A DNA stretch of 64,000 nucleotides from the NCBI RefSeq assembly GCF_044324785.1, contig NZ_CP172127.1. One strand, 5' to 3'. The DNA is from Escherichia coli. Lineage in GTDB: Bacteria; Pseudomonadota; Gammaproteobacteria; Enterobacterales; Enterobacteriaceae. The translations under genes and the position numbers were made by a program. Under the pieces are notes generated by a model. That model was given only the letters and a program-made list of their open reading frames with translations, was not told where the DNA came from and did no database searches. Below are positions 9,068-53,826 of the stretch, in pieces (the stretch's first letter is position 1; each line of letters opens with the position of its first letter).

Positions 9068-9397
9068 ATGCTGATCTTCGAAGGTAAAGAGATAGAAACG
9101 GATACCGAAGGCTATCTCAAAGAAAGCAGCCAGTGGAGTGAGCCGCTGGCAGTGGTGATTGCAGAGAACGAAGGGATTTCGCTGTCGCCAGAACACTGGG
9201 AAGTGGTGCGTTTTGTGCGTGATTTCTATCTGGAATTCAATACTTCTCCGGCGATTCGTATGCTGGTAAAAGCGATGGCGAATAAATTTGGCGAAGAAAA
9301 AGGTAACAGCCGCTATTTATACCGACTGTTTCCGAAAGGTCCGGCTAAGCAAGCCACCAAAATTGCTGGCCTGCCAAAACCGGTAAAATGTATTTAA
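9068..9397 (+). CDS. tusE: Sulfurtransferase TusE (2-thiouridine tRNA modification)
   Basis: Track ORF 9011..9397 trimmed to ATG 9068 ([23 protein letters not shown]...), 109 aa, DsrC-like C-terminal ...PKPVKCI. Confidence 0.9.
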
Positions 9398-15852: not shown

Positions 15853-18006
15853 ATGCTAAGTCCTTTGCTCAAACGCTATACCTGGAACAGCGCCTGGCTG
15901 TATTACGCGCGTATTTTTATTGCGCTTTGTGGAACCACAGCGTTTCCGTGGTGGCTGGGTGATGTAAAACTGACGATTCCGCTGACGCTGGGGATGGTGG
16001 CAGCGGCGCTGACCGATCTCGATGACCGACTGGCGGGACGTTTGCGTAACCTCATCATTACGCTGTTCTGCTTTTTTATCGCCTCGGCCTCAGTAGAATT
16101 GCTGTTTCCCTGGCCCTGGCTATTTGCGATTGGCCTAACGCTCTCTACCAGCGGCTTCATTTTGCTCGGCGGTCTGGGTCAACGCTATGCAACAATTGCC
16201 TTCGGTGCATTGCTGATCGCCATTTACACTATGTTGGGAACATCACTGTATGAGCACTGGTATCAGCAGCCGATGTATCTGCTGGCCGGTGCCGTCTGGT
16301 ACAACGTCCTGACACTTATTGGTCATCTGCTGTTCCCGGTCCGCCCGCTGCAGGACAACCTGGCGCGTTGCTATGAACAACTGGCGCGTTATCTTGAGCT
16401 CAAGTCGCGCATGTTTGATCCTGATATTGAAGATGAAAGCCAGGCACCGCTGTACGATTTGGCTCTCGCCAACGGTCAGCTGATGGCGACATTGAATCAG
16501 ACGAAACTCTCGCTGCTTACCCGCTTACGTGGCGATCGTGGTCAACGGGGAACGCGTCGCACGCTGCATTATTACTTTGTCGCACAGGATATTCACGAGC
16601 GTGCCAGCTCTTCTCATATTCAGTATCAAACATTGCGTGAACATTTTCGCCACAGCGACGTACTGTTCCGTTTTCAGCGGCTGATGTCGATGCAGGGCCA
16701 GGCGTGCCAGCAACTGTCACGCTGTATTTTGCTGCGCCAGCCTTATCAACATGATCAGCATTTTGAGCGCGCTTTTACGCATATTGATGCTGCGCTGGAG
16801 CGGATGCGCGATAACGGCGCGCCTGCCGATTTACTCAAAACACTGGGATTTTTGCTGAACAATTTACGCGCTATTGATGCCCAACTGGCAACAATTGAAT
16901 CAGAACAGGCCCAGGCACTGCCCCATAATAATGACGAAAATGAGCTCGCTGATGACAGCCCGCACGGATTAAGTGATATCTGGCTGCGTCTTAGCCGTCA
17001 CTTCACGCCGGAATCCGCCCTCTTCCGTCATGCGGTAAGAATGTCGCTGGTGTTGTGCTTCGGCTACGCCATCATTCAGATAACCGGAATGCATCACGGG
17101 TATTGGATCTTGCTGACAAGTTTGTTTGTCTGCCAGCCAAACTATAACGCCACGCGCCACCGCCTGAAGTTAAGGATTATTGGGACGCTGGTAGGTATCG
17201 CCATTGGCATTCCTGTGCTGTGGTTTGTGCCGTCACTGGAAGGGCAACTGGTGCTACTGGTTATTACCGGCGTGCTCTTTTTTGCCTTCCGTAACGTGCA
17301 ATACGCCCATGCAACGATGTTCATCACACTTTTGGTGCTACTTTGTTTTAACTTACTGGGTGAAGGTTTTGAAGTGGCGTTACCTCGCGTAATTGATACG
17401 CTGATTGGTTGTGCCATTGCGTGGGCGGCAGTGAGCTACATCTGGCCTGACTGGAAGTTTCGCAATCTGCCGCGCATGCTCGAACGCGCCACAGAGGCCA
17501 ACTGTCGGTATCTCGACGCCATACTGGAGCAATACCATCAGGGACGTGATAACCGTCTGGCGTATCGTATTGCCCGCCGCGATGCACACAACCGTGATGC
17601 TGAACTGGCGTCGGTGGTATCAAATATGTCCAGCGAGCCGAACGTTACCCCGCAAATTCGCGAGGCCGCGTTTCGGTTGCTGTGCCTTAACCATACGTTT
17701 ACCAGCTATATCTCAGCCCTCGGTGCTCACCGGGAGCAGTTAACTAATCCTGATATTCTGGCGTTTCTTGATGACGCAGTTTGCTATGTTGATGACGCGC
17801 TACATCATCAACCTGCTGATGAAGAACGCGTCAATCAGGCATTAGCTGGCCTGAAACAGCGGATGCAGCAACTTGAACCGCGGGCAGACAGCAAAGAACC
17901 TCTGGTCGTACAACAAGTCGGGTTATTGATTGCATTACTGCCAGAGATTGGTCGTCTGCAACGCCAGATTACTCAAGTTCCGCAGGAAACTCCTGTTTCG
18001 GCGTAA
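15853..18006 (+). CDS. yccS: Inner-membrane protein YccS (aromatic acid exporter-like, FUSC family)
   Basis: Track ORF 15844..18006 trimmed to ATG 15853 (MLSPLLKRYTWNSAWLYYARIF...), 717 aa. Confidence 0.9.
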   Translation: MLSPLLKRYTWNSAWLYYARIFIALCGTTAFPWWLGDVKLTIPLTLGMVAAALTDLDDRLAGRLRNLIITLFCFFIASASVELLFPWPWLFAIGLTLSTSGFILLGGLGQRYATIAFGALLIAIYTMLGTSLYEHWYQQPMYLLAGAVWYNVLTLIGHLLFPVRPLQDNLARCYEQLARYLELKSRMFDPDIEDESQAPLYDLALANGQLMATLNQTKLSLLTRLRGDRGQRGTRRTLHYYFVAQDIHERASSSHIQYQTLREHFRHSDVLFRFQRLMSMQGQACQQLSRCILLRQPYQHDQHFERAFTHIDAALERMRDNGAPADLLKTLGFLLNNLRAIDAQLATIESEQAQALPHNNDENELADDSPHGLSDIWLRLSRHFTPESALFRHAVRMSLVLCFGYAIIQITGMHHGYWILLTSLFVCQPNYNATRHRLKLRIIGTLVGIAIGIPVLWFVPSLEGQLVLLVITGVLFFAFRNVQYAHATMFITLLVLLCFNLLGEGFEVALPRVIDTLIGCAIAWAAVSYIWPDWKFRNLPRMLERATEANCRYLDAILEQYHQGRDNRLAYRIARRDAHNRDAELASVVSNMSSEPNVTPQIREAAFRLLCLNHTFTSYISALGAHREQLTNPDILAFLDDAVCYVDDALHHQPADEERVNQALAGLKQRMQQLEPRADSKEPLVVQQVGLLIALLPEIGRLQRQITQVPQETPVSA

Positions 18007-29782: not shown

Positions 29783-31891
29783 TCAGGCTGCGGTAATCAG
29801 CCAGCAGTTGTGGATCTGGCGGTTACGGGCGAAATCCTGGGAGAGCGTTTTTTGCGTAATTTCTTGTGCTTTCAGTCCCAGTTTTGCCAGGCCGTCGAGA
29901 TCCATACGGAAGCCACGTTTGTTGTTCGAGAACATGATCGTCCCACCTGCACGCAGCAGACGTTTCAAATCTTTCATCAGCGCCAGATGATCGCGCTGAA
30001 CATCAAACGCATCTTCCATTCGTTTTGAGTTAGAGAAGGTTGGCGGATCGATAAAGATCAGATCGAACTGTTCATTTGCCTCACGCAGCCACGCCAGGCA
30101 ATCGGCCTGAATCAGGCGATGCGCACGCCCGGTTAGGCCATTCAGACGCAGGTTGCGTTCTGCCCACTCCAGATAAGTACGCGACATATCCACGGTGGTG
30201 GTGCTGCGTGCACCGCCTAATCCCGCATGCACGGTGGCGCTGCCGGTATAAGAGAACAGGTTGAGGAAATCTTTGCCTTTGCTCATCTGACCTAGCATAC
30301 GGCGGGCGATGCGGTGATCGAGGAACAGACCAGTATCGAGATAATCCGTCAGGTTCACCCACAAGTGAGCGTTATATTCGGTAACTTCCAGAAACTCGCC
30401 CTTCTCGCCCAGTTTCTGGTACTGATTTTTGCCCTTCTGACGTTCACGGGTTTTCAGCACCAGTTTGTTTGGCGCAATCCCCAGTACCGAAATGGTTGCA
30501 GCGATAATATCGAACAGACGCTGACGCGCTTTGTGCGCATCAATAGTTTTTGGCGGCGCATACTCCTGCACCACCACCCAGTCGGCATAACGGTCAACGG
30601 CAACGTTATATTCTGGCAGATCGGCGTCATACAGGCGGTAACATTCAATCCCTTCCTGGCGAGCCCACTTCTCGAATTTTTTGAGGTTCTTACGCAGGCG
30701 GTTGGCGTAGTCTTCCGCTACCATCGCCGGTTTGCTGTCTGGAGTGCTTTCGGCAACGTGGTAATTTTTCTGTACGCAGTCCAGCGGGCCGTTTTTCGCC
30801 TTGTACTGTTTGTCTGCACGCAGCTGCAGGCAGCTGAGCAGATCCGGCGAGGCACTAAACAAAGAGAGATTCCAACCACCAAACTGGTTTTTCATGATTC
30901 GGCCCAGCAGACTATGCAGCGCAATCAGCGCCGGTTCGCTGTCCAGACGTTCGCCGTAAGGCGGGTTGCTCAACACTGTACCGTATGGCCCTTTCGGCAG
31001 CGGATTGGTCAGTTGCGCGACATCTTTCACTTCAAAAGTGATCAGTTCGCCAATCCCCGCAAGACGGGCGTTGGTGCGCGCACGTTGAATCACCCGTGCG
31101 TCGCTGTCCGAACCATAAAAATGAGAGCTATACTCAGCCAGGCCTTTGCGGGCGCGAGTTTGCGCTTCCGCTTTCACTTCCTGCCAGATAGCTTCATCAT
31201 GCTGCGCCCAGCCGCTAAAGCCCCAACGCCCACGGTGCAAGCCTGGTGCGCGATCGGTCGCCAGCATCGCCGCTTCAATCAGCAACGTACCGGAACCACA
31301 CATCGGATCGAGCAGCGGTGTTCCTGGCTGCCAGCCGGATCGCATCACAATCGCGGCTGCCAGGGTTTCTTTGATCGGCGCAATACCAGCACGATCGCGA
31401 TAGCCACGCAGATGTAAACCATCACCACTGAGATCAAGGGCGATACTGGCTGTTTCTTTATGCAGCCAGACGTTAACGCGGATATCCGGCGCATCGCGAT
31501 CAACATTTGGACGCGGCAGATTTTTCCGCGTGAAAGCATCGACGATCGCGTCTTTCACTTTCATCGCACCGTACTGACTGTTGCGGATGGTGTCATTCAA
31601 ACCACTGAAGTGGACAGCGAAGGTCGCACCAGGATTAAACATCTCTGTCCAGTTGATCGCCTGAACACCGAGATAGAGGTCTAAATCGCTGTAAACCTTA
31701 CACTCGCCCAGTGGCAACATAATACGCGAGGCCAGGCGGCTCCACATCAGGCTCTGGTAAACAAGCCGTGTGTCGCCCTTGAAATGGACCCCACCCTGAA
31801 CCACCTGGCATTCAACGGCCCCCAGGTTTTCCAGTTCAGTTTTTAACAGCTCTTCCAGCCCACGGGCCGTACTGGCAAACAGAGAATTCAT
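29783..31891 (-). CDS. rlmL: Bifunctional 23S rRNA methyltransferase RlmKL (m2G2445/m7G2069)
   Basis: Track ORF 702 aa [25 protein letters not shown]... Confidence 0.92.
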
Positions 31892-32134
31892 ATCGTCACT
31901 TTTACTCTAAGAGCCTACCGCAGTAGGCGTAATTGTTGCAGTCAGTCTGGACATGGACAGCGCGGAGAAACCGGAGCGTACACAAGTACGTGAGGATTTC
32001 GAGCACTTCCCTGGGCCAAACTGACAAATAAAATAGCCTAATGGGACAGGCGCTAAGAAAATTGTTGCGCATTATAGCTAATAAGCGCGTCATGTCATAA
32101 AGTTGAGGGCTTATTTTCATTTGAGGACCGCACC

Positions 32135-33244
32135 GTGGCGACATTAACCCGGCTTTTTATTCATCCTGTTAAATCGATGCGCGGCATTGGTCTTACACAT
32201 GCTCTGGCAGATGTCAGTGGTCTGGCCTTCGATCGCATCTTTATGATCACGGAACCTGACGGTACGTTTATTACCGCTCGCCAGTTTCCCCAGATGGTAC
32301 GGTTTACTCCTTCACCTGTGCATGATGGCTTGCATCTCACCGCACCAGATGGCAGTAGCGCATATGTTCGTTTTGCTGATTTCGCCACACAAGACGCACC
32401 AACCGAAGTTTGGGGCACACATTTTACCGCGCGAATTGCGCCAGGCGCGATCAACAAATGGCTAAGTGGATTTTTCTCCCGCGAAGTGCAATTACGCTGG
32501 GTGGGGCCACAAATGACCCGGCGCGTGAAACGCCACAACACTGTACCTCTGTCATTTGCTGATGGCTATCCTTACCTTCTTGCTAACGAAGCCTCGTTAC
32601 GTGATCTCCAACAACGTTGTCCAGCCAGTGTAAAAATGGAGCAATTCCGCCCCAATCTGGTGGTTTCCGGCGCGTCCGCCTGGGAAGAAGATAGCTGGAA
32701 AGTGATTCGCATTGGTGATGTGGTATTTGATGTGGTTAAACCTTGTAGCCGCTGTATTTTCACCACCGTCAGCCCAGAAAAAGGGCAAAAACATCCGGCA
32801 GGCGAACCATTAAAAACATTGCAATCTTTCCGCACTGCCCAGGATAACGGCGATGTCGATTTTGGTCAGAATTTAATTGCCCGTAATAGCGGCGTAATTC
32901 GCGTTGGCGATGAGGTGGAAATTCTGGCAACGGCTCCGGCTAAAATTTACGGCGCAGCCGCCGCTGATGATACCGTCAACATCACGCAACAACCGGACGC
33001 AAATGTAGATATTGACTGGCAGGGACAGGCATTTCGTGGAAATAACCAGCAGGTGTTGCTGGAGCAATTAGAAAATCAGGGAATTCGTATCCCTTATTCT
33101 TGCCGCGCGGGCATTTGTGGAAGTTGCCGTGTTCAGCTTTTAGAAGGCGAAGTCACGCCGCTGAAAAAATCAGCAATGGGCGATGATGGCACCATTCTTT
33201 GCTGTAGCTGTGTACCGAAGACTGCGCTTAAGCTGACGCGTTAG
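32135..33244 (+). CDS. ycbX: MOSC-domain protein with C-terminal 2Fe-2S ferredoxin domain
   Basis: Track ORF 369 aa beginning at GTG 32135 ([19 protein letters not shown]...); GAGGA Shine-Dalgarno at 32122-32126; C-terminal [11 protein letters not shown] ferredoxin motif. Confidence 0.9.
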
Positions 33245-33783
33245 ACTGCCTGTTCGAGGCTGAAGCTGTCCGCATTAACCTGCGGTTTCAGCCTGTCGTT
33301 CATGATTTTAATGGCGTCGCCCAACTGCATCGTGCGACCCGCAATAACAACGCAGGGTTGGGCCAGCAGGCATAGTGCGGCATTTTCGCCAGATTCAATG
33401 ACCAGCAAATTGACCTGCTCGTGAGTATCGCTCAACCAAACGCAGGCCGCATCGCCCGGCATGGGCATCCACATTTCACCATGAGATACAAAATGCCAGC
33501 TTTTCGGCATTTGCGGTTTGAGATAACGAATTGCTACCAGTGCATTAAGCACCAGTTCGGCTTTTTGTTCTTTAGATAAATTAAAATCGCGGCATTTTTC
33601 TTCAAATGAGAAATAGAGCGCTGCATCATCAACACAAAAAACGGAGGGATTAAAGGCATCTGGTGTGAGCATTTTACGAGCAAAACGCGAGCGAAATAAC
33701 ATACCATTGGCTAAATCGAGCATCATTCGATCGTGCTCTTCATCATAATACCAGCGCCAGTTATCGTCAGGTTTAATTCGCAT
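33241..33783 (-). CDS. zapC: Cell-division protein ZapC
   Basis: Track ORF 180 aa [30 protein letters not shown]... Confidence 0.92.
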
Positions 33784-33956
33784 GCGGATTCTCCCACCTA
33801 AATCATTCTGCGCAACATTGTCCTTTGCCGCTTCGTTTATTGCCCTAAATAAGAAAAGACTAAAATGTATAAATAAGCAACAGGTAAGGAATATAAAACA
33901 ACCAGGGCTGGAAATAAAGCCCCGGTTGTCTCATAACGTTAAAAAGGAGAAATTAA

Positions 33957-34967
33957 TCAGATATTGCTAACGATTTCTTTAATCAAAGGCGGTCCTTTGA
34001 AAATAAATCCCGAATAAATTTGCACCAGCGTTGCACCCGCAGCAATCTTTTCACGCGCAGCGATAACCGAGTCAATGCCGCCAACACCGATGATCGGTAA
34101 GCGACCGTTTAATTCCTGTGACAAGCGGCGAATAATTTCTGTGCTTTTTAACTGAAGCGGACGACCACTTAAGCCACCGGTTTGATCACAATTTTTCATT
34201 CCCTGAACCAGAGAACGATCGAGCGTGGTATTGGTTGCAATAACGCCATCAATATTATGGCGAACTAAACTATCGGCAACCTGGATCAATTCTTCTTCAG
34301 AAAGATCCGGCGCGATCTTCACTGCGATCGGCACATATTTATGGTGCATCGCTTGCAAATCATTTTGCTTATTTTTAATCGCGGTTAAGAGATCATCCAG
34401 CGCTTCGCCATATTGCAGTGTGCGTAGTCCTGGGGTATTCGGCGATGAAATATTGATGGCGATATATCCCGCATAAGCATAGATTTTTTCCATACAAATC
34501 AGATAGTCATCTTTACCCTGCTCCACCGGCGTATCTTTATTTTTGCCGATGTTAATACCCAGGACGCCATCATAATGGGCTTTTTTTACGTTCTCTACGA
34601 GGTTATCAACGCCAAGATTATTAAAGCCCATACGGTTGATCAAACCTTCGGCATCTACCAGACGAAAGAGACGCGGCTTGTCATTACCTGGCTGTGGACG
34701 TGGCGTGACGGTACCGATCTCGATCGATCCAAATCCCATCGCGCCTAACGCGTCAATGCACTCCCCGTCTTTATCAAGACCGGCTGCCAGACCAAGCGGA
34801 TTTTTAAACGTCAGGCCCATGCAGTTAACAGGTTTCGCAGGCACTTTCTGCCGCACCAGTGCTTCAAACGGCGTTCCGGTAATGCGGCGTAATTGCTGAA
34901 AAGTAAACTCATGAGCGCGCTCTGGATCGAGCTGGAAAAGGGCTTTACGAACGAAGGGGTAGTACAT
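33957..34967 (-). CDS. pyrD: Dihydroorotate dehydrogenase (quinone)
   Basis: Track ORF 33957..34994 (TTG-extended) trimmed to ATG 34967 ([21 protein letters not shown]...), 336 aa. Confidence 0.95.
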
Positions 34968-35077
34968 GAACTCTCCTGGATTCCCGGTGTGCAAACCGGG
35001 GGCGTATTATGTGCGAGTTCGGACCAAAAGGGAATTGACCTGTGGCAAAAAAAGCGCAAACGTTTTCCGAACCTGTT

Positions 35078-35788
35078 TCAGAGCAGATTTTGCTCCTTCT
35101 TTGCACTCAACCCGCCGTAATCATTTATCGTCCGCCAGGAGACATGACACGGTGCTATTGCCTGACACCAGCTTGTCTGACGCTGGCTTTTAGGTGGCAC
35201 AACTCCCGCATTACTTAACGCTTTACCATTTACGCTCACCTGAATCAGGTTAATGTAGTAAGGCGTTGGGTTAGTGAGTTGTACACCCTGCGAATTCCGT
35301 GTCCAGCGTAATTGTTGATAAGCTTCCAGCGGGTCGCCCGGCAAACCTTCGGGTCGCCAGAACAGTTTAAATACCGAGCGCATCGCCACTTTTACGCTCT
35401 GATTTTCAACTTTGCCGGATGGTACGCTGGCAATGCTTAACTCAAATAGCGTTTCGCGATCCACAGGCAAAATGCCGCTTTCCGTTCTCAGCAAGCGCAA
35501 CGTGCCTGTAGTACCGGGCTTCAGGAGAACAAGTGGTGGAGCGACCAGTAGTGGTGCTGACCCTGTCGATGCTTCGCCCCCGGCCCAACGCGTTGGGCGA
35601 TTGATTTTACTGTTAATAAGCCAGGATTCCTGACTGGTATTAGTCAGTGAAATAGATATCGATTCTCTGTCTGCCGGGAAGATAAATCGCGTTCCGCCAA
35701 CCACCACTCCTGCCTGCAATTTCCCCGCCACCAGCAGCGATAAAACGGCAAAAATCGCGAGCGTCAATCTGTTCCACGTATTAGTCAT
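35078..35788 (-). CDS. ycbF: Periplasmic fimbrial chaperone (PapD-like), second chaperone of the elf cluster
   Basis: Track ORF 35078..35815 trimmed to ATG 35788 (MTNTWNRLTLAIFAVLSLLVAGKLQA...); chaperone-type fold signature ...VFKLFWRPEGL...; start set by N-terminus recall, moderate certainty. Confidence 0.8.
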   Translation of the reverse strand: MTNTWNRLTLAIFAVLSLLVAGKLQAGVVVGGTRFIFPADRESISISLTNTSQESWLINSKINRPTRWAGGEASTGSAPLLVAPPLVLLKPGTTGTLRLLRTESGILPVDRETLFELSIASVPSGKVENQSVKVAMRSVFKLFWRPEGLPGDPLEAYQQLRWTRNSQGVQLTNPTPYYINLIQVSVNGKALSNAGVVPPKSQRQTSWCQAIAPCHVSWRTINDYGGLSAKKEQNLL

Positions 35789-36857: not shown

Positions 36858-40519
<3,662 letters not shown>

Positions 40520-42222: not shown

Positions 42223-42798
42223 ATGCGTGTCATCACCCTGGCGGGTAGTCCTCGCTTTCCTTCTCGCTCCAGCTCCTTGCTGGAATATGCGCGGGAAAAA
42301 CTGAATGGCCTGGATGTAGAGGTTTATCACTGGAATCTGCAAAACTTCGCCCCGGAAGATCTACTTTATGCTCGTTTCGATAGTCCGGCACTCAAGACCT
42401 TCACCGAACAGCTGCAACAGGCTGATGGACTGATAGTCGCTACACCTGTGTATAAAGCCGCCTATTCCGGCGCGCTGAAAACCCTGCTCGACCTGCTGCC
42501 AGAGCGCGCTTTGCAAGGCAAAGTGGTGCTGCCGCTGGCGACAGGCGGCACGGTGGCTCATCTTTTGGCGGTCGATTATGCCCTTAAGCCAGTTTTAAGT
42601 GCGCTGAAAGCCCAGGAGATCCTGCACGGCGTGTTTGCCGATGACTCACAAGTAATTGATTACCACCACAAACCCCAGTTCACGCCAAATCTGCAAACCC
42701 GTCTTGATACCGCGCTGGAAACTTTCTGGCAGGCATTGCACCGTCGGGATGTTCAGGTTCCTGACCTTCTGTCTCTGCGAGGTAATGCCCATGCGTAA
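42223..42798 (+). CDS. ssuE: NADPH-dependent FMN reductase
   Basis: Track ORF 191 aa MRVITLAGSPRFPSRSSSLLEYAREKL... Confidence 0.93.
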   Translation: MRVITLAGSPRFPSRSSSLLEYAREKLNGLDVEVYHWNLQNFAPEDLLYARFDSPALKTFTEQLQQADGLIVATPVYKAAYSGALKTLLDLLPERALQGKVVLPLATGGTVAHLLAVDYALKPVLSALKAQEILHGVFADDSQVIDYHHKPQFTPNLQTRLDTALETFWQALHRRDVQVPDLLSLRGNAHA

Positions 42799-43750
42799 GA
42801 TCATTAAACTGGCGCTGGCGGGCTTACTTAGCGTCTCTACACTTGCTGTTGCCGCGGAGTCTTCGCCAGAGGCGTTACGGATTGGCTATCAGAAAAGCAA
42901 CATCAGTTCGGTGCTGGCGAAAAATTACCAAATGCTGGAAAAACGCTATCCGCAAACAAAAATCTTCTGGGTGGAGTTCCCGGCTGGCCCGCAGATGCTG
43001 GAGGCACTGAACGTCGGTAGTATCGATCTGGGTAGTACGGGAGATATTCCGCCAATCTTTGCTCAGGCCGCCGGGGCTGATTTGCTGTATGTGGGTGTCG
43101 AGCCACCGAAGCCAAAAGCCGAAGTGATTCTGGTGGCAGAAAATAGTCCGATCAAAACCGTAGCCGATCTTAAAGGTCACAAAGTTGCCTTTCAGAAAGG
43201 TTCCAGTTCACACAACCTTTTACTGCGTGCACTGCGTCAGGCCGGACTTAAGTTTACCGATATACAACCCACTTACCTGACACCCGCTGATGCCCGCGCC
43301 GCGTTCCAGCAAGGTAACGTTGACGCCTGGGCTATCTGGGATCCCTACTACTCCGCTGCATTATTACAGGGCGGCGTGCGGGTGCTGAAAGACGGCACCG
43401 ATCTCAATCAAACCGGATCGTTTTATCTGGCTGCCCGTCCGTATGCAGAAAAAAACGGCGCATTTATTCAGGGTGTACTGGCAACCTTTAGTGAGGCCGA
43501 TGCGTTAACCCGCAGCCAGCGCGAGCAAAGCATCGCCTTATTGGCAAAAACGATGGGCTTACCGGCCCCGGTGATTGCCTCGTATCTGGATCATCGCCCT
43601 CCCACCACCATCAAACCGGTTAACGCCGAAGTTGCCGCCTTACAGCAGCAAACGGCAGATCTGTTTTATGAAAACCGTCTGGTGCCGAAAAAAGTCGATA
43701 TTCGCCAGCGTATCTGGCAGCCCACTCAACTGGAAGGAAAACAATTATGA
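42791..43750 (+). CDS. ssuA: Aliphatic sulfonate ABC transporter periplasmic binding protein
   Basis: Track ORF 42656..43750 trimmed to ATG 42791 ([34 protein letters not shown]...), 319 aa; 8-nt overlap with ssuE. Confidence 0.92.
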
Positions 43751-52752: not shown

Positions 52753-53826
52753 ATGATGAAGCGCAATATTCTGGCAGTGATCGTCCCTGCTCTGTTAGTA
52801 GCAGGTACTGCAAACGCTGCAGAAATCTATAACAAAGATGGCAATAAAGTAGATCTGTACGGTAAAGCTGTCGGTCTGCATTATTTTTCTAAAGACAATG
52901 GTGTAAACAGTTACGGCGGAAACGGCGACAAAACTTATGCCCGTCTTGGTTTTAAAGGGGAAACACAAATCAATTCCGATCTGACCGGCTACGGTCAGTG
53001 GGAATATAACTTCCAGGGTAACAACTCTGAAGGCGCTGATGCCCAGAAAGGTAACAAAACTCGTCTGGCATTCGCAGGTCTGAAATTCGCTGATGCGGGT
53101 TCTATCGACTACGGTCGTAACTACGGTGTGGTTTACGACGCACTGGGTTACACCGATATGCTGCCTGAGTTTGGCGGTGACACGGCATACAGCGATGACT
53201 TCTTCGTTGGTCGTGTAGGCGGCGTTGCTACCTATCGTAACTCCAACTTCTTCGGTCTGGTTGACGGCCTGAACTTTGCCGTTCAGTACCTGGGCAAAAA
53301 CGAACGTGCTGGTATTCCTGAGCGTTCCAACGGCGACGGCGTCGGTGGCTCTATCAGCTACGAATTCGAAGGCTTTGGTATCGTAGGTGCTTACGGTGCA
53401 GCAGACCGTACCGACGCCCAGGAAGCCGAATTCCGCGGTCAGGGTAAAAAAGCTGAACAGTGGGCAACTGGTCTGAAGTATGACGCGAACAACATCTACC
53501 TGGCAGCGAACTACGGTGAAACCCGTAACGCTACGCCAATTGAAGGCGGCTTCGCCAACAAAACGCAAGACGTTCTGTTAGTTGCGCAATACCAGTTCGA
53601 TTTCGGTCTGCGTCCGTCCATCGCTTACACCAAATCTAAAGCGAAAGACGTAGAAGGTATCGGTGATGTTGATCTGGTGAACTACTTTGAAGTGGGCGCA
53701 ACCTACTACTTCAACAAAAACATGTCCACCTATGTTGACTACATCATCAACCAGATCGATTCTGACAACAAACTGGGCGTAGGTTCTGACGACACCGTTG
53801 CTGTGGGTATCGTTTACCAGTTCTAA
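52753..53826 (+). CDS. ompF: Outer membrane porin F (variant allele, 357 aa)
   Basis: Track [41 protein letters not shown]...VGIVYQF; general-porin fold with terminal aromatic residue; loops differ from the K-12 allele. Confidence 0.95.

What the first reader, a model, noticed from the sequence alone, without database searches (positions are those of the whole stretch)
33241..33244. ycbX and zapC share overlapping stop codons
ycbX (plus) stops with TAG at 33242-33244 and zapC (minus) stops with TAA at 33241-33243 on the complementary strand, another tail-to-tail overlap with no intergenic terminator. This is the same architecture as the tusE/acyP pair.
Basis: seen in the sequence. Interest (0 to 1): 0.15.

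Follow-up and report, generated by a model that had tools for sequence, protein, structure and literature searches.

The report
ycbX–zapC four-base stop-codon overlap
Two convergent E. coli genes, ycbX and zapC, end on the same four bases; this is an ordinary, already annotated arrangement, and because no spacer is left between the genes, the conserved RNA hairpin that follows ycbX lies inside the last codons of zapC.

Summary
ycbX (+, 32135-33244) stops with TAG at 33242-33244. zapC (-, 33241-33783) stops with TAA, the complement of 33241-33243. The ORFs share the tetramer TTAG (CTAA on the zapC strand).

This is the commonest kind of convergent overlap in prokaryotes. RefSeq annotates it identically in E. 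coli K-12. It was separated on purpose in a recoded BL21 strain, and the pair is listed as a convergent excludon.

In 80 Enterobacteriaceae species, 74 keep the exact overlap (TTAA 59, TTAG 8, CTAA 7). Six have gaps of 6-70 nt. More distant relatives have gaps of 8 or 38 nt, or lack ycbX.

Published K-12 data place the zapC-strand 3' end 92 nt inside ycbX, and place Rho-dependent termination regions on both strands inside the partner gene.

I add one result. A stem-loop at 33258-33293, 14 nt after the ycbX stop and inside zapC codons 164-176, is conserved with compensatory changes. It is far more stable than synonymous recoding allows (median z -4.0) and pairs better on the ycbX strand. It most likely shapes or protects the ycbX mRNA 3' end.

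Interest is low.

The parts
32135..33244 (+). ycbX CDS (MOSC/2Fe-2S protein, 369 aa), stop TAG at 33242-33244
   Evidence: ORF list. Pfam MOSC_N, MOSC and Fer2, with Fer2 ending at residue 362 of 369. 98.6% aa identity to K-12 YcbX. RefSeq annotation.
33241..33783 (-). zapC CDS (cell division protein ZapC, 180 aa), stop TAA = complement of 33241-33243
   Evidence: ORF list. Pfam ZapC_N and ZapC_C, with the domain ending at residue 168 of 180. Matches PDB 5fo3 and 5e1l over residues 1-180. RefSeq annotation.
33241..33244 (.). Shared tetramer TTAG (+ strand; CTAA on the zapC strand) holding both stop codons
   Evidence: Sequence. It is one of the four tetramers that allow a 4-nt convergent overlap (Lillo & Krakauer 2007). 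The tetramer position is kept in 74 of 80 species as TTAA 59, TTAG 8, CTAA 7.
33258..33293 (+). Conserved stem-loop in the ycbX-sense transcript, 14 nt after the ycbX stop and inside zapC codons 164-176. The stem is GGCUGAAGCUG/CGGUUUCAGCC and the loop is variable.
   Evidence: MFE -19.6 kcal/mol against -7.4 +/- 2.4 for synonymous recodings. 89.2% of cells pair against 80.8% in shuffles and 21-49% in slid controls; 7 of 11 pairs show compensatory changes. RNAalifold predicts the same helix. Pairing is 89.2% on the ycbX strand against 74.7% on the zapC strand. It is the only strong outlier in a scan of all of zapC.
33149..33186 (-). zapC-sense 3' region inside ycbX. An imperfect hairpin spans 33186-33153. 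Position 33149 is the equivalent of the K-12 Term-seq 3' end (K-12 1006586), 92 nt past the zapC stop.
   Evidence: Adams et al. 2021, supplementary file 1. The window is identical to K-12 over 33100-33225, so the mapping is exact. Fold. The hairpin is not conserved across the family: no consensus pairs.
33088..33088 (-). Approximate equivalent of the K-12 Rho termination region 1006647 (zapC-sense strand, antisense to ycbX)
   Evidence: Adams et al. 2021, supplementary file 2: Rho score 7.24, p 1.1e-24. The position is a region marker from 800-nt windows, not an exact site.
33695..33695 (+). Approximate equivalent of the K-12 Rho termination region 1006040 (ycbX-sense strand, antisense to zapC)
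   Evidence: Adams et al. 2021, supplementary file 2: Rho score 4.34, p 7.4e-8. The position is a region marker only.

Best explanation
This is an ordinary four-base, tail-to-tail overlap of two independently transcribed genes.

Shown: the ycbX stop (TAG) and the zapC stop (TAA) lie in one tetramer. The junction has been held at the same position across most Enterobacteriaceae.

Inferred: the junction is held because a change to either shared base would destroy both stops, and losing either stop would add a long tail to a working protein. Only T/C at tetramer position 1 and A/G at position 4 are free, and those are the only variants seen. Nothing suggests the overlap is itself a device. It is a frozen result of stop-codon position combined with two short, loosely constrained C-terminal tails.

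The consequence is that each mRNA must end inside the other gene.

Shown for K-12 by published data: zapC transcripts run at least 92 nt into ycbX, and both strands have Rho-dependent termination regions within the partner CDS. The two mRNAs are therefore partly complementary, which is the definition of a convergent excludon.

Shown here: a stem-loop 14 nt after the ycbX stop is written into zapC codons 164-176 and kept by selection at the nucleotide level, preferentially on the ycbX strand.

Inferred: it is the 3' stem-loop of the ycbX mRNA. It most likely blocks exonucleases after Rho-dependent termination further downstream. It may also act as a weak terminator that limits antisense transcription into zapC.
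For: **Anatomy**
- Searches give the stops and ORFs. RefSeq annotates the same layout.

**The class is known**
- Huvet & Stumpf 2014 count 75 convergent overlaps in E. coli.
- In this window 3 of 9 convergent pairs overlap.

**Conservation**
- 74 of 80 species keep the overlap, using only the permitted variants.
- More distant relatives with the same pyrD-zapC-ycbX-rlmL order have gaps of 8 and 38 nt.

**The overlap is dispensable**
- Six natural gaps of 6-70 nt exist.
- 6-11 nt were inserted after the ycbX TAG in a well-growing recoded BL21 strain (Mukai 2015).

**Transcripts**
- zapC and ycbX are monocistronic units with their own start sites.
- A Term-seq 3' end lies at K-12 1006586, and Rho termination regions lie at 1006647 (+) and 1006040 (-).
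- zapC-ycbX is listed among 165 convergent excludons.

**Hairpin**
- Searches support it.
- The matched negative control on the zapC side shows no conserved structure.
- Stable stem-loops without a U tract, with rut sites just downstream, are the described 3' ends of Rho-dependent E. coli transcripts (Dar & Sorek 2018 abstract).
Against: - No Term-seq 3' end antisense to zapC, or primary to ycbX, is listed in Adams et al. 2021. The ycbX 3' end at the hairpin is therefore unobserved. It could be missing because ycbX expression is low, but that is not shown.
- The U tract after the stem is poor (UGUCGUUC), and the terminator scan did not report the site.
- C over G enrichment downstream of the hairpin is only modest, 1.15-1.67.
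- The hairpin is also fairly stable on the zapC strand (median z -2.35), so a role in zapC mRNA is not excluded.
- All transcript data are from K-12, not from the strain of this window.
- The sequences compared are related. The internal scan controls for this, but independent evolutionary events were not counted.
Confidence: 0.8

Rival explanations
1. The overlap is a selected regulatory device, a true excludon. Forced convergent transcription through each other's coding region makes zapC and ycbX expression mutually exclusive, through RNA polymerase collision and RNase III cleavage of the duplex. That function is what keeps the junction conserved.
For: - zapC-ycbX is listed in the E. coli excludome, seen in at least 50% of 58 transcriptomes.
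- The same paper reports higher synteny for excludon pairs in general.
- Transcripts do extend into the partner gene in K-12.
- The junction is conserved in 74 of 80 species.
Against: - No reciprocal expression data for this pair were found.
- Cell division (ZapC) and detoxification of N-hydroxylated bases (YcbX) have no evident functional link; this rests on the annotation.
- Purifying selection on two stop codons alone explains the conservation of the tetramer.
- Six species, and the more distant relatives, have gaps. An engineered 6-11-nt separation was tolerated. None of these removes the transcript overlap, so they argue only against the ORF overlap being the device.
Confidence: 0.15
2. 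The conserved hairpin acts in the zapC mRNA or at the DNA level, not in the ycbX transcript. Possible roles are slowing ribosomes before the zapC stop, stabilising zapC mRNA, or serving as a palindromic protein-binding site.
For: - The complementary strand is also more structured than synonymous recodings: median z -2.35, and -4.19 for the window sequence.
- The min-z scan gives -3.58 for the sense strand.
- No ycbX 3' end has been mapped at the hairpin.
Against: - Pairing is 89.2% on the ycbX strand against 74.7% on the zapC strand. There are 160 G-U cells against 33. The ycbX strand pairs better in 69 of 81 sequences and worse in 2.
- A-U to U-G changes, seen in 23 species, keep pairing on the ycbX strand only.
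- On the zapC strand the helix is inside the translated region and would be opened by ribosomes (inference).
- G-U tolerance argues for RNA rather than duplex DNA.
Confidence: 0.12
3. The overlap is an annotation or reading artefact: one of the two stop codons is not the real end of its protein.
For: None found.
Against: - Re-translation confirms both stops.
- ZapC aligns over residues 1-180 with two crystal-structure sequences of 180 residues.
- YcbX length and stop position are kept in 74 of 80 species.
- RefSeq annotation agrees.
Confidence: 0.01

Closest known systems
Four-nucleotide convergent (tail-to-tail) gene overlaps of prokaryotes, tetramers CTAA/TTAA/CTAG/TTAG (Lillo & Krakauer 2007, PMC2174442; Huvet & Stumpf 2014, PMC4161906)
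   Same: Two real convergent genes have their stop codons in one tetramer. The overlap length is the modal one. 58-75 such convergent overlaps are counted in E. coli. Any terminator has to lie in the partner's coding sequence.
   Different: Nothing essential differs. This junction is unusually stable (74 of 80 species), whereas Huvet & Stumpf stress high turnover of overlaps.
Convergent excludons / overlapping 3' UTR transcription in E. coli (ExcludonFinder, PMC12288877)
   Same: zapC-ycbX, yccX-tusE and sxy-yccS are all listed as convergent excludons in MG1655. K-12 3'-end data agree that transcripts extend into the partner gene.
   Different: Mutually exclusive expression or RNase III processing has not been shown for this pair. 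The listing rests on RNA-seq coverage overlap alone.
Protective 3' stem-loops of Rho-dependent transcripts (Dar & Sorek 2018, PMC6061677)
   Same: A stable stem-loop is not followed by a U-rich tract. A Rho-dependent termination region lies downstream on the same strand in K-12.
   Different: The steady-state ycbX 3' end at this stem has not been observed. The stem is encoded inside another gene's reading frame on the opposite strand.
Intrinsic (Rho-independent) terminators, including bidirectional terminators between convergent genes
   Same: A G+C-rich hairpin sits close after a stop codon. The more distant relative L088 has a classical palindromic hairpin in a 38-nt spacer between zapC and ycbX.
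   Different: No U tract follows the stem (4 U in the first 8 nt), and the consensus scan did not report it. The hairpin lies upstream of the zapC stop, so it cannot serve zapC and is not bidirectional.
tusE/yccX (acyP) junction in the same window
   Same: A 4-nt overlap (TTAA, 9394-9397). The K-12 tusE-strand 3' end lies 86 nt inside yccX. A strand-specific hairpin lies 10-54 nt past the yccX stop, inside the tusE tail, with z -3.3.
   Different: Cross-species conservation of that junction and hairpin was not tested here.

Membership tests
4-nt convergent stop-codon overlap | Two genuine protein-coding genes on opposite strands, converging | tested here: met
   ORFs. Pfam domains in both. PDB match for ZapC. 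RefSeq annotation.
4-nt convergent stop-codon overlap | Both stop codons contained in one tetramer of the set CTAA/TTAA/CTAG/TTAG | tested here: met
   TTAG at 33241-33244 on the + strand. Set as defined.
4-nt convergent stop-codon overlap | Same junction in orthologous gene pairs, so it is not a strain-specific accident | tested here: met
   74 of 80 Enterobacteriaceae species: TTAA 59, TTAG 8, CTAA 7. K-12 is identical at the junction.
Convergent excludon | Transcripts of the two genes overlap | not testable with these tools
   Published for K-12 only: the excludome list, the Term-seq end 92 nt inside ycbX, and Rho termination regions in both partner genes. No RNA data exist for this strain.
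Convergent excludon | Reciprocal (mutually exclusive) expression, or RNase III processing of the duplex | not tested
   No pair-specific data were found in the papers read.
Intrinsic terminator (hairpin 33258-33293) | Stable G+C-rich stem-loop | tested here: met
   MFE -19.6 kcal/mol; an 11-pair helix conserved with covariation.
Intrinsic terminator (hairpin 33258-33293) | U-rich tract immediately 3' of the stem | tested here: not met
   The tail is UGUCGUUCAUGAUUUU. The scan, which requires 5 T in 8, did not report the site.
Intrinsic terminator (hairpin 33258-33293) | RNA 3' end mapped at the tract | tested here: inconclusive
   No 3' end antisense to zapC appears in Adams et al. supplementary file 1. 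Supplements of other E. coli data sets are not held, or contain no mention of either gene.
Protective 3' stem-loop of a Rho-dependent transcript | Stable stem-loop not followed by a U-rich sequence | tested here: met
   Definition.
Protective 3' stem-loop of a Rho-dependent transcript | Rho-dependent termination downstream on the same strand | tested here: inconclusive
   K-12 Rho termination region at 1006040 (-): score 4.34, p 7.4e-8. It is derived from 800-nt windows, and C/G downstream is only 1.15-1.67.
Protective 3' stem-loop of a Rho-dependent transcript | Steady-state 3' end immediately downstream of the stem; dependence on PNPase/RNase II | not testable with these tools
   Needs 3'-end mapping of ycbX mRNA. 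None is listed.
Described RNA families (Rfam 15) | Match at gathering score over the junction or the hairpin | tested here: not met
   The only hits in the window are the PyrD leader (34962-35035) and one tRNA.

The most novel reading that the evidence does not exclude
The stem-loop at 33258-33293 is a selected dual-use sequence: the 3'-end hairpin of ycbX mRNA written into zapC codons 164-176. On this reading, keeping the hairpin has shaped the C-terminal tail of a cell-division protein. The example is ZapC F174Y changing together with K166Q in 23 species, which turns an A-U pair into U-G. The hairpin would also limit antisense transcription into zapC. The tusE/yccX junction appears to repeat the pattern. 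That would suggest a general rule: 4-nt convergent overlaps persist where one partner's tail can host the other's 3' hairpin.
Probability: 0.45. Interest if true: 0.3.

Novelty: already known. Interest (0 to 1): 0.13.

Why it matters
The overlap itself adds nothing new. It is annotated in reference genomes and belongs to a well-described class. It has already been handled in genome recoding, where the ycbX TAG had to be uncoupled from zapC, and in transcriptome surveys.

Three modest points are worth keeping.

- **Genome design.** Edits near 33241-33300 touch two proteins and a conserved RNA hairpin at once. Synonymous recoding of the zapC tail could therefore change ycbX mRNA.
- **A worked example.** When the intergenic spacer is lost, the 3'-end element moves into the neighbour's reading frame, and it can be detected there by a synonymous-recoding null.
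- **A testable hypothesis.** The parallel with tusE/yccX gives a small hypothesis about which convergent overlaps are stable.

Tried and rejected
**Supplementary 3'-end tables**
- None are held as text for ExcludonFinder, PMC12259150, Dar & Sorek 2018 or PMC9023263.
- The TERMITe supplements do not mention either gene.
- The ycbX 3' end could therefore not be checked in a second data set.

**Conserved structure downstream of the zapC stop**
- The region lies inside ycbX (alignment A2). RNAalifold gives 0 pairs.
- The GCUGAUUUUUUCAGC hairpin next to the K-12 Term-seq end occurs only in Escherichia, Citrobacter and Salmonella. I rejected it as a family-wide element, and it serves as a negative control.

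**Classical terminator**
- The consensus scan found no + strand site between 33095 and 34029. On the - strand inside ycbX it found only weak 5-6-bp sites, at 33094-33078 and 33062-33046.
- I rejected a canonical intrinsic terminator.

**Rfam**
- Nothing at the junction.

**Reaching distant relatives**
- The search for homologous proteins listed only close relatives (at least 72% identity), so the representative search was needed to reach more distant ones.
- Two of the four more distant loci lack a called ycbX (L087, L089) and say nothing about the junction.

**Other ideas rejected**
- Genome compaction as the driver: the neighbouring spacers are large, 173 nt for zapC-pyrD and 243 nt for ycbX-rlmL.
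- Mis-assigned stops: rejected.

Full report
**1. Observation**

The sequence around the site reads ...aag ctg acg cgT TAG act gcc.... Mechanical ORF listing gives ycbX at 32135..33244 on the + strand, 369 aa, ending KLTR followed by TAG at 33242-33244. It gives zapC at 33241..33783 on the - strand, 180 aa, ending EQAV followed by TAA, the complement of TTA at 33241-33243.

The two ORFs share four bases (TTAG on the + strand, CTAA on the zapC strand). The two stop codons share two bases. Every coordinate in the finding is right.

Both ORFs are real genes:
- The products carry ZapC_N plus ZapC_C, and MOSC_N plus MOSC plus Fer2.
- ZapC aligns end to end with the sequences of two crystal structures.
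- The window is an E. coli chromosome segment collinear with K-12 975.7-1039.7 kb. Most of its proteins are 99-100% identical to K-12.

**2. The overlap is already annotated and belongs to a known class**

RefSeq annotates the same layout in E. coli N3 and in K-12 MG1655: zapC 1005952..1006494 (+) and ycbX 1006491..1007600 (-). The K-12 junction sequence is identical to the window. The 1.7-kb segment is present in 5425 of 5426 complete E. coli genomes.

Lillo & Krakauer (2007) describe this class. The modal overlap length is 4 nt. [quoted passage not shown] E. coli has 58 convergent overlaps. Any terminator for such genes must lie inside the partner's coding sequence. Huvet & Stumpf (2014) count 75 convergent overlaps in E. 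coli.

In this window 3 of 9 convergent pairs overlap:
- yccS/sxy by 38 nt.
- ycbX/zapC by 4 nt.

Mukai et al. (2015) inserted 6-11 nt after the ycbX TAG, specifically to separate the overlapping ORFs while removing UAG codons from BL21(DE3). The resulting strain grew well.

**3. Comparative anatomy of the junction**

A scan of one genome per species returned 80 Enterobacteriaceae loci with zapC. ycbX converges on zapC in all 80.

- In 74 the stops overlap in the same register. The tetramer, read on the zapC strand, is TTAA in 59, TTAG in 8 and CTAA in 7.
- Only the two positions that can vary without losing a stop do vary. Position 1 is T or C, which is synonymous in the last Val codon of ZapC. 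Position 4 is A or G.
- The other six species (a Citrobacter amalonaticus strain, two Raoultella and three Enterobacter spp.) have gaps of 6, 10, 11, 16, 45 and 70 nt that look like small insertions.

More distant ZapC homologues were reached through the representative library:
- The pyrD-zapC-ycbX-rlmL order is kept with an 8-nt gap at 61% ZapC identity (L085/L086).
- It is kept with a 38-nt gap at 46% identity (L088). That gap holds a perfect 10-bp palindromic hairpin.
- Two further lineages lack a called ycbX.

The overlap is therefore a long-lived state within Enterobacteriaceae, not a universal feature of the gene pair. It can be lost both naturally and by engineering.

The simplest account is purifying selection on two stop codons. 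Reading past the ycbX stop in this window meets no in-frame stop in the roughly 45 codons (about 135 nt) I read by eye from the sequence, so losing the stop would add a long tail. Both proteins end in short tails outside their Pfam domains: ZapC residues 169-180 and YcbX residues 363-369.

**4. Where the transcripts end**

There is no intergenic DNA, so there can be no intergenic terminator. Published K-12 data fill in the picture.

- SMRT-Cappable-seq lists zapC and ycbX as separate units with their own start sites, 1005851 forward and 1007624 reverse.
- Adams et al. (2021) list a Term-seq 3' end at 1006586 on the zapC strand. That is 92 nt past the zapC stop and antisense to ycbX. It maps exactly to window 33149, because the window equals K-12 over 33100-33225.
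- Their bicyclomycin experiment gives two Rho termination regions. One is at 1006647 on the zapC strand (Rho score 7.24, p 1e-24). The other is at 1006040 on the ycbX strand, antisense to zapC (score 4.34, p 7e-8).
- ExcludonFinder (2025) lists zapC-ycbX among 165 convergent excludons of MG1655, together with yccX-tusE and sxy-yccS.

Both mRNAs therefore run into the partner gene and depend at least partly on Rho. This is shown for K-12 and inferred for this strain.

**5. A conserved hairpin inside zapC**

Folding the + strand just after the ycbX stop gives a strong stem-loop at 33258-33293 (GGCUGAAGCUG ... CGGUUUCAGCC). I aligned this stretch in the ycbX sense from the window and the 80 loci (alignment A1). 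Five results support it:

- **Pairing and covariation.** For the 11-pair helix, 89.2% of cells form standard pairs, against 80.8 +/- 0.7% in shuffles (0 of 500 reach it) and 21-49% when the partner is slid. Cells with changes on both sides number 89, against 20 +/- 5. Seven of the 11 pairs show such changes.
- **Independent prediction.** RNAalifold predicts the same helix on its own.
- **Strand preference.** The helix pairs better on the ycbX strand: 89.2% against 74.7% paired, and 160 against 33 G-U cells. The ycbX strand is better in 69 of 81 sequences and worse in 2.
- **Not explained by the protein.** Recoding each sequence with synonymous codons, keeping ZapC unchanged, gives 56.2 +/- 1.7% pairing against 90.0% observed (0 of 1000). 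For the window sequence the MFE is -19.6 against -7.4 +/- 2.4 kcal/mol. The median z over 78 species is -3.9.
- **Unique within zapC.** The same test was run in 45-nt windows along all of zapC in 36 species, so relatedness is the same for every window. This window is the only strong outlier: median z -4.00 on the ycbX strand and -2.35 on the zapC strand, against absolute values of about 1.6 or less elsewhere.

The matching region on the other side, downstream of the zapC stop inside ycbX, has no consensus structure at all.

The stem lies in ZapC codons 164-167 and 172-176. The variable loop lies in codons 168-171. One compensatory change is non-synonymous on both arms: F174Y together with K166Q turns A-U into U-G in 23 species.

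**6. What the hairpin does (inference)**

It is not a canonical intrinsic terminator. The tail is UGUCGUUC, and the consensus scan did not report the site.

It fits the 3' ends that Dar & Sorek (2018) describe for Rho-dependent E. coli transcripts: stable stem-loops without a U tract that protect against 3'-5' exonucleases, with rut sites just downstream. A Rho termination region does lie downstream on that strand.

The weak points are:
- No ycbX 3' end is listed at the hairpin in the one data set I could read.
- The C over G excess downstream is modest.

A weak terminator role that limits antisense transcription into zapC is compatible with the data and is not separated from the protective role here.

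**7. Rivals**

- **A selected regulatory excludon.** This cannot be excluded, but nothing specific to this pair supports it beyond transcript overlap.
- **A role for the hairpin in zapC mRNA or in DNA.** The G-U asymmetry disfavours it.
- **An annotation artefact.** This is excluded.

**8. Verdict**

The feature is ordinary and already known.

The only new element is the conserved, strand-specific hairpin for ycbX embedded in zapC. It is a new instance of known kinds of 3'-end element. The tusE/yccX junction hints at the same layout:
- The K-12 tusE-strand 3' end lies 86 nt inside yccX.
- A strand-specific hairpin lies 10-54 nt past the yccX stop, with z -3.3.

I did not test that junction across species.

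Noticed in passing
window 33501-34000 (mainly 33607-33700 and 33784-33956): This 500-nt piece is only 84% identical to K-12, against 97-99% for most of the window. The differences cluster in zapC codons ~28-60 and in the zapC-pyrD spacer, which also has small indels. ZapC is still 96% identical in protein. The best match of the 1.7-kb segment among 5426 complete E. coli genomes is only 97.2%. This looks like a recombined or fast-evolving tract.
   Followed up: partly
window 33897-33930 (- strand): A terminator-like hairpin lies just after pyrD (ACAACCGGGGCUUUAUUUCCAGCCCUGGUUGU followed by U-rich sequence). It differs from K-12 at several stem positions, and by eye the pairing appears to be kept.
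   Followed up: no
window 9394-9397 and 9340-9390: tusE (+) and yccX/acyP (-) share TTAA. The K-12 Term-seq 3' end of the tusE strand lies 86 nt inside yccX, seen in two conditions. A strong strand-specific hairpin (MFE -27.1, z -3.3 against synonymous recoding) lies 10-54 nt past the yccX stop, inside the tusE tail. This mirrors the ycbX/zapC layout.
   Followed up: partly
window 17969-18006: yccS (+) and sxy (-) overlap convergently by 38 nt. The pair is also listed as a convergent excludon in MG1655.
   Followed up: no
window 33258-33293; ZapC residues 166 and 174: ZapC F174Y occurs together with K166Q in 23 species. Only 3 species have each change alone. The two changes convert an A-U pair of the hairpin into U-G, so an RNA structure on the opposite strand may be steering amino-acid changes.
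   Followed up: partly
L088:3044-3081: In a more distant relative (46% ZapC identity) the 38-nt zapC-ycbX spacer holds a perfect 10-bp palindromic hairpin (UACCGCUUAC-CCG-GUAAGCGGUA). This is the classical intergenic arrangement that Enterobacteriaceae lack.
   Followed up: no
L033:3041-3070: In Enterobacter sp. BIGb0383 the stops are 10 nt apart. A new 7-bp G+C-rich hairpin (CCGCCCU/AGGGCGG) starts in the gap, spans the ycbX stop and runs into the ycbX tail.
   Followed up: no
window 32098-32071 (- strand): A promoter-like site matches 11 of 12 consensus positions (ATGACA-16-TATAAT). It lies where the SMRT-Cappable-seq rlmL start site (K-12 1007671, about window 32064) predicts the rlmL promoter, in the ycbX-rlmL divergent spacer.
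   Followed up: no
window 34962-35035 (- strand): Rfam PyrD leader, 97.9 bits, upstream of pyrD. This is a known element.
   Followed up: no
window 31800-35200: The loose terminator-like scan found 14 sites, against 3.7 +/- 1.9 in shuffles. Most are short stems inside coding sequence. The excess is unexplained.
   Followed up: no
window 42501-43000, 53001-53500, 37001-40500: Other pieces with low identity to K-12: 89% at ssuE/ssuA, 87% in ompF, and 92-95% across the elf fimbrial genes. These are probably allelic diversity of surface or imported segments.
   Followed up: no
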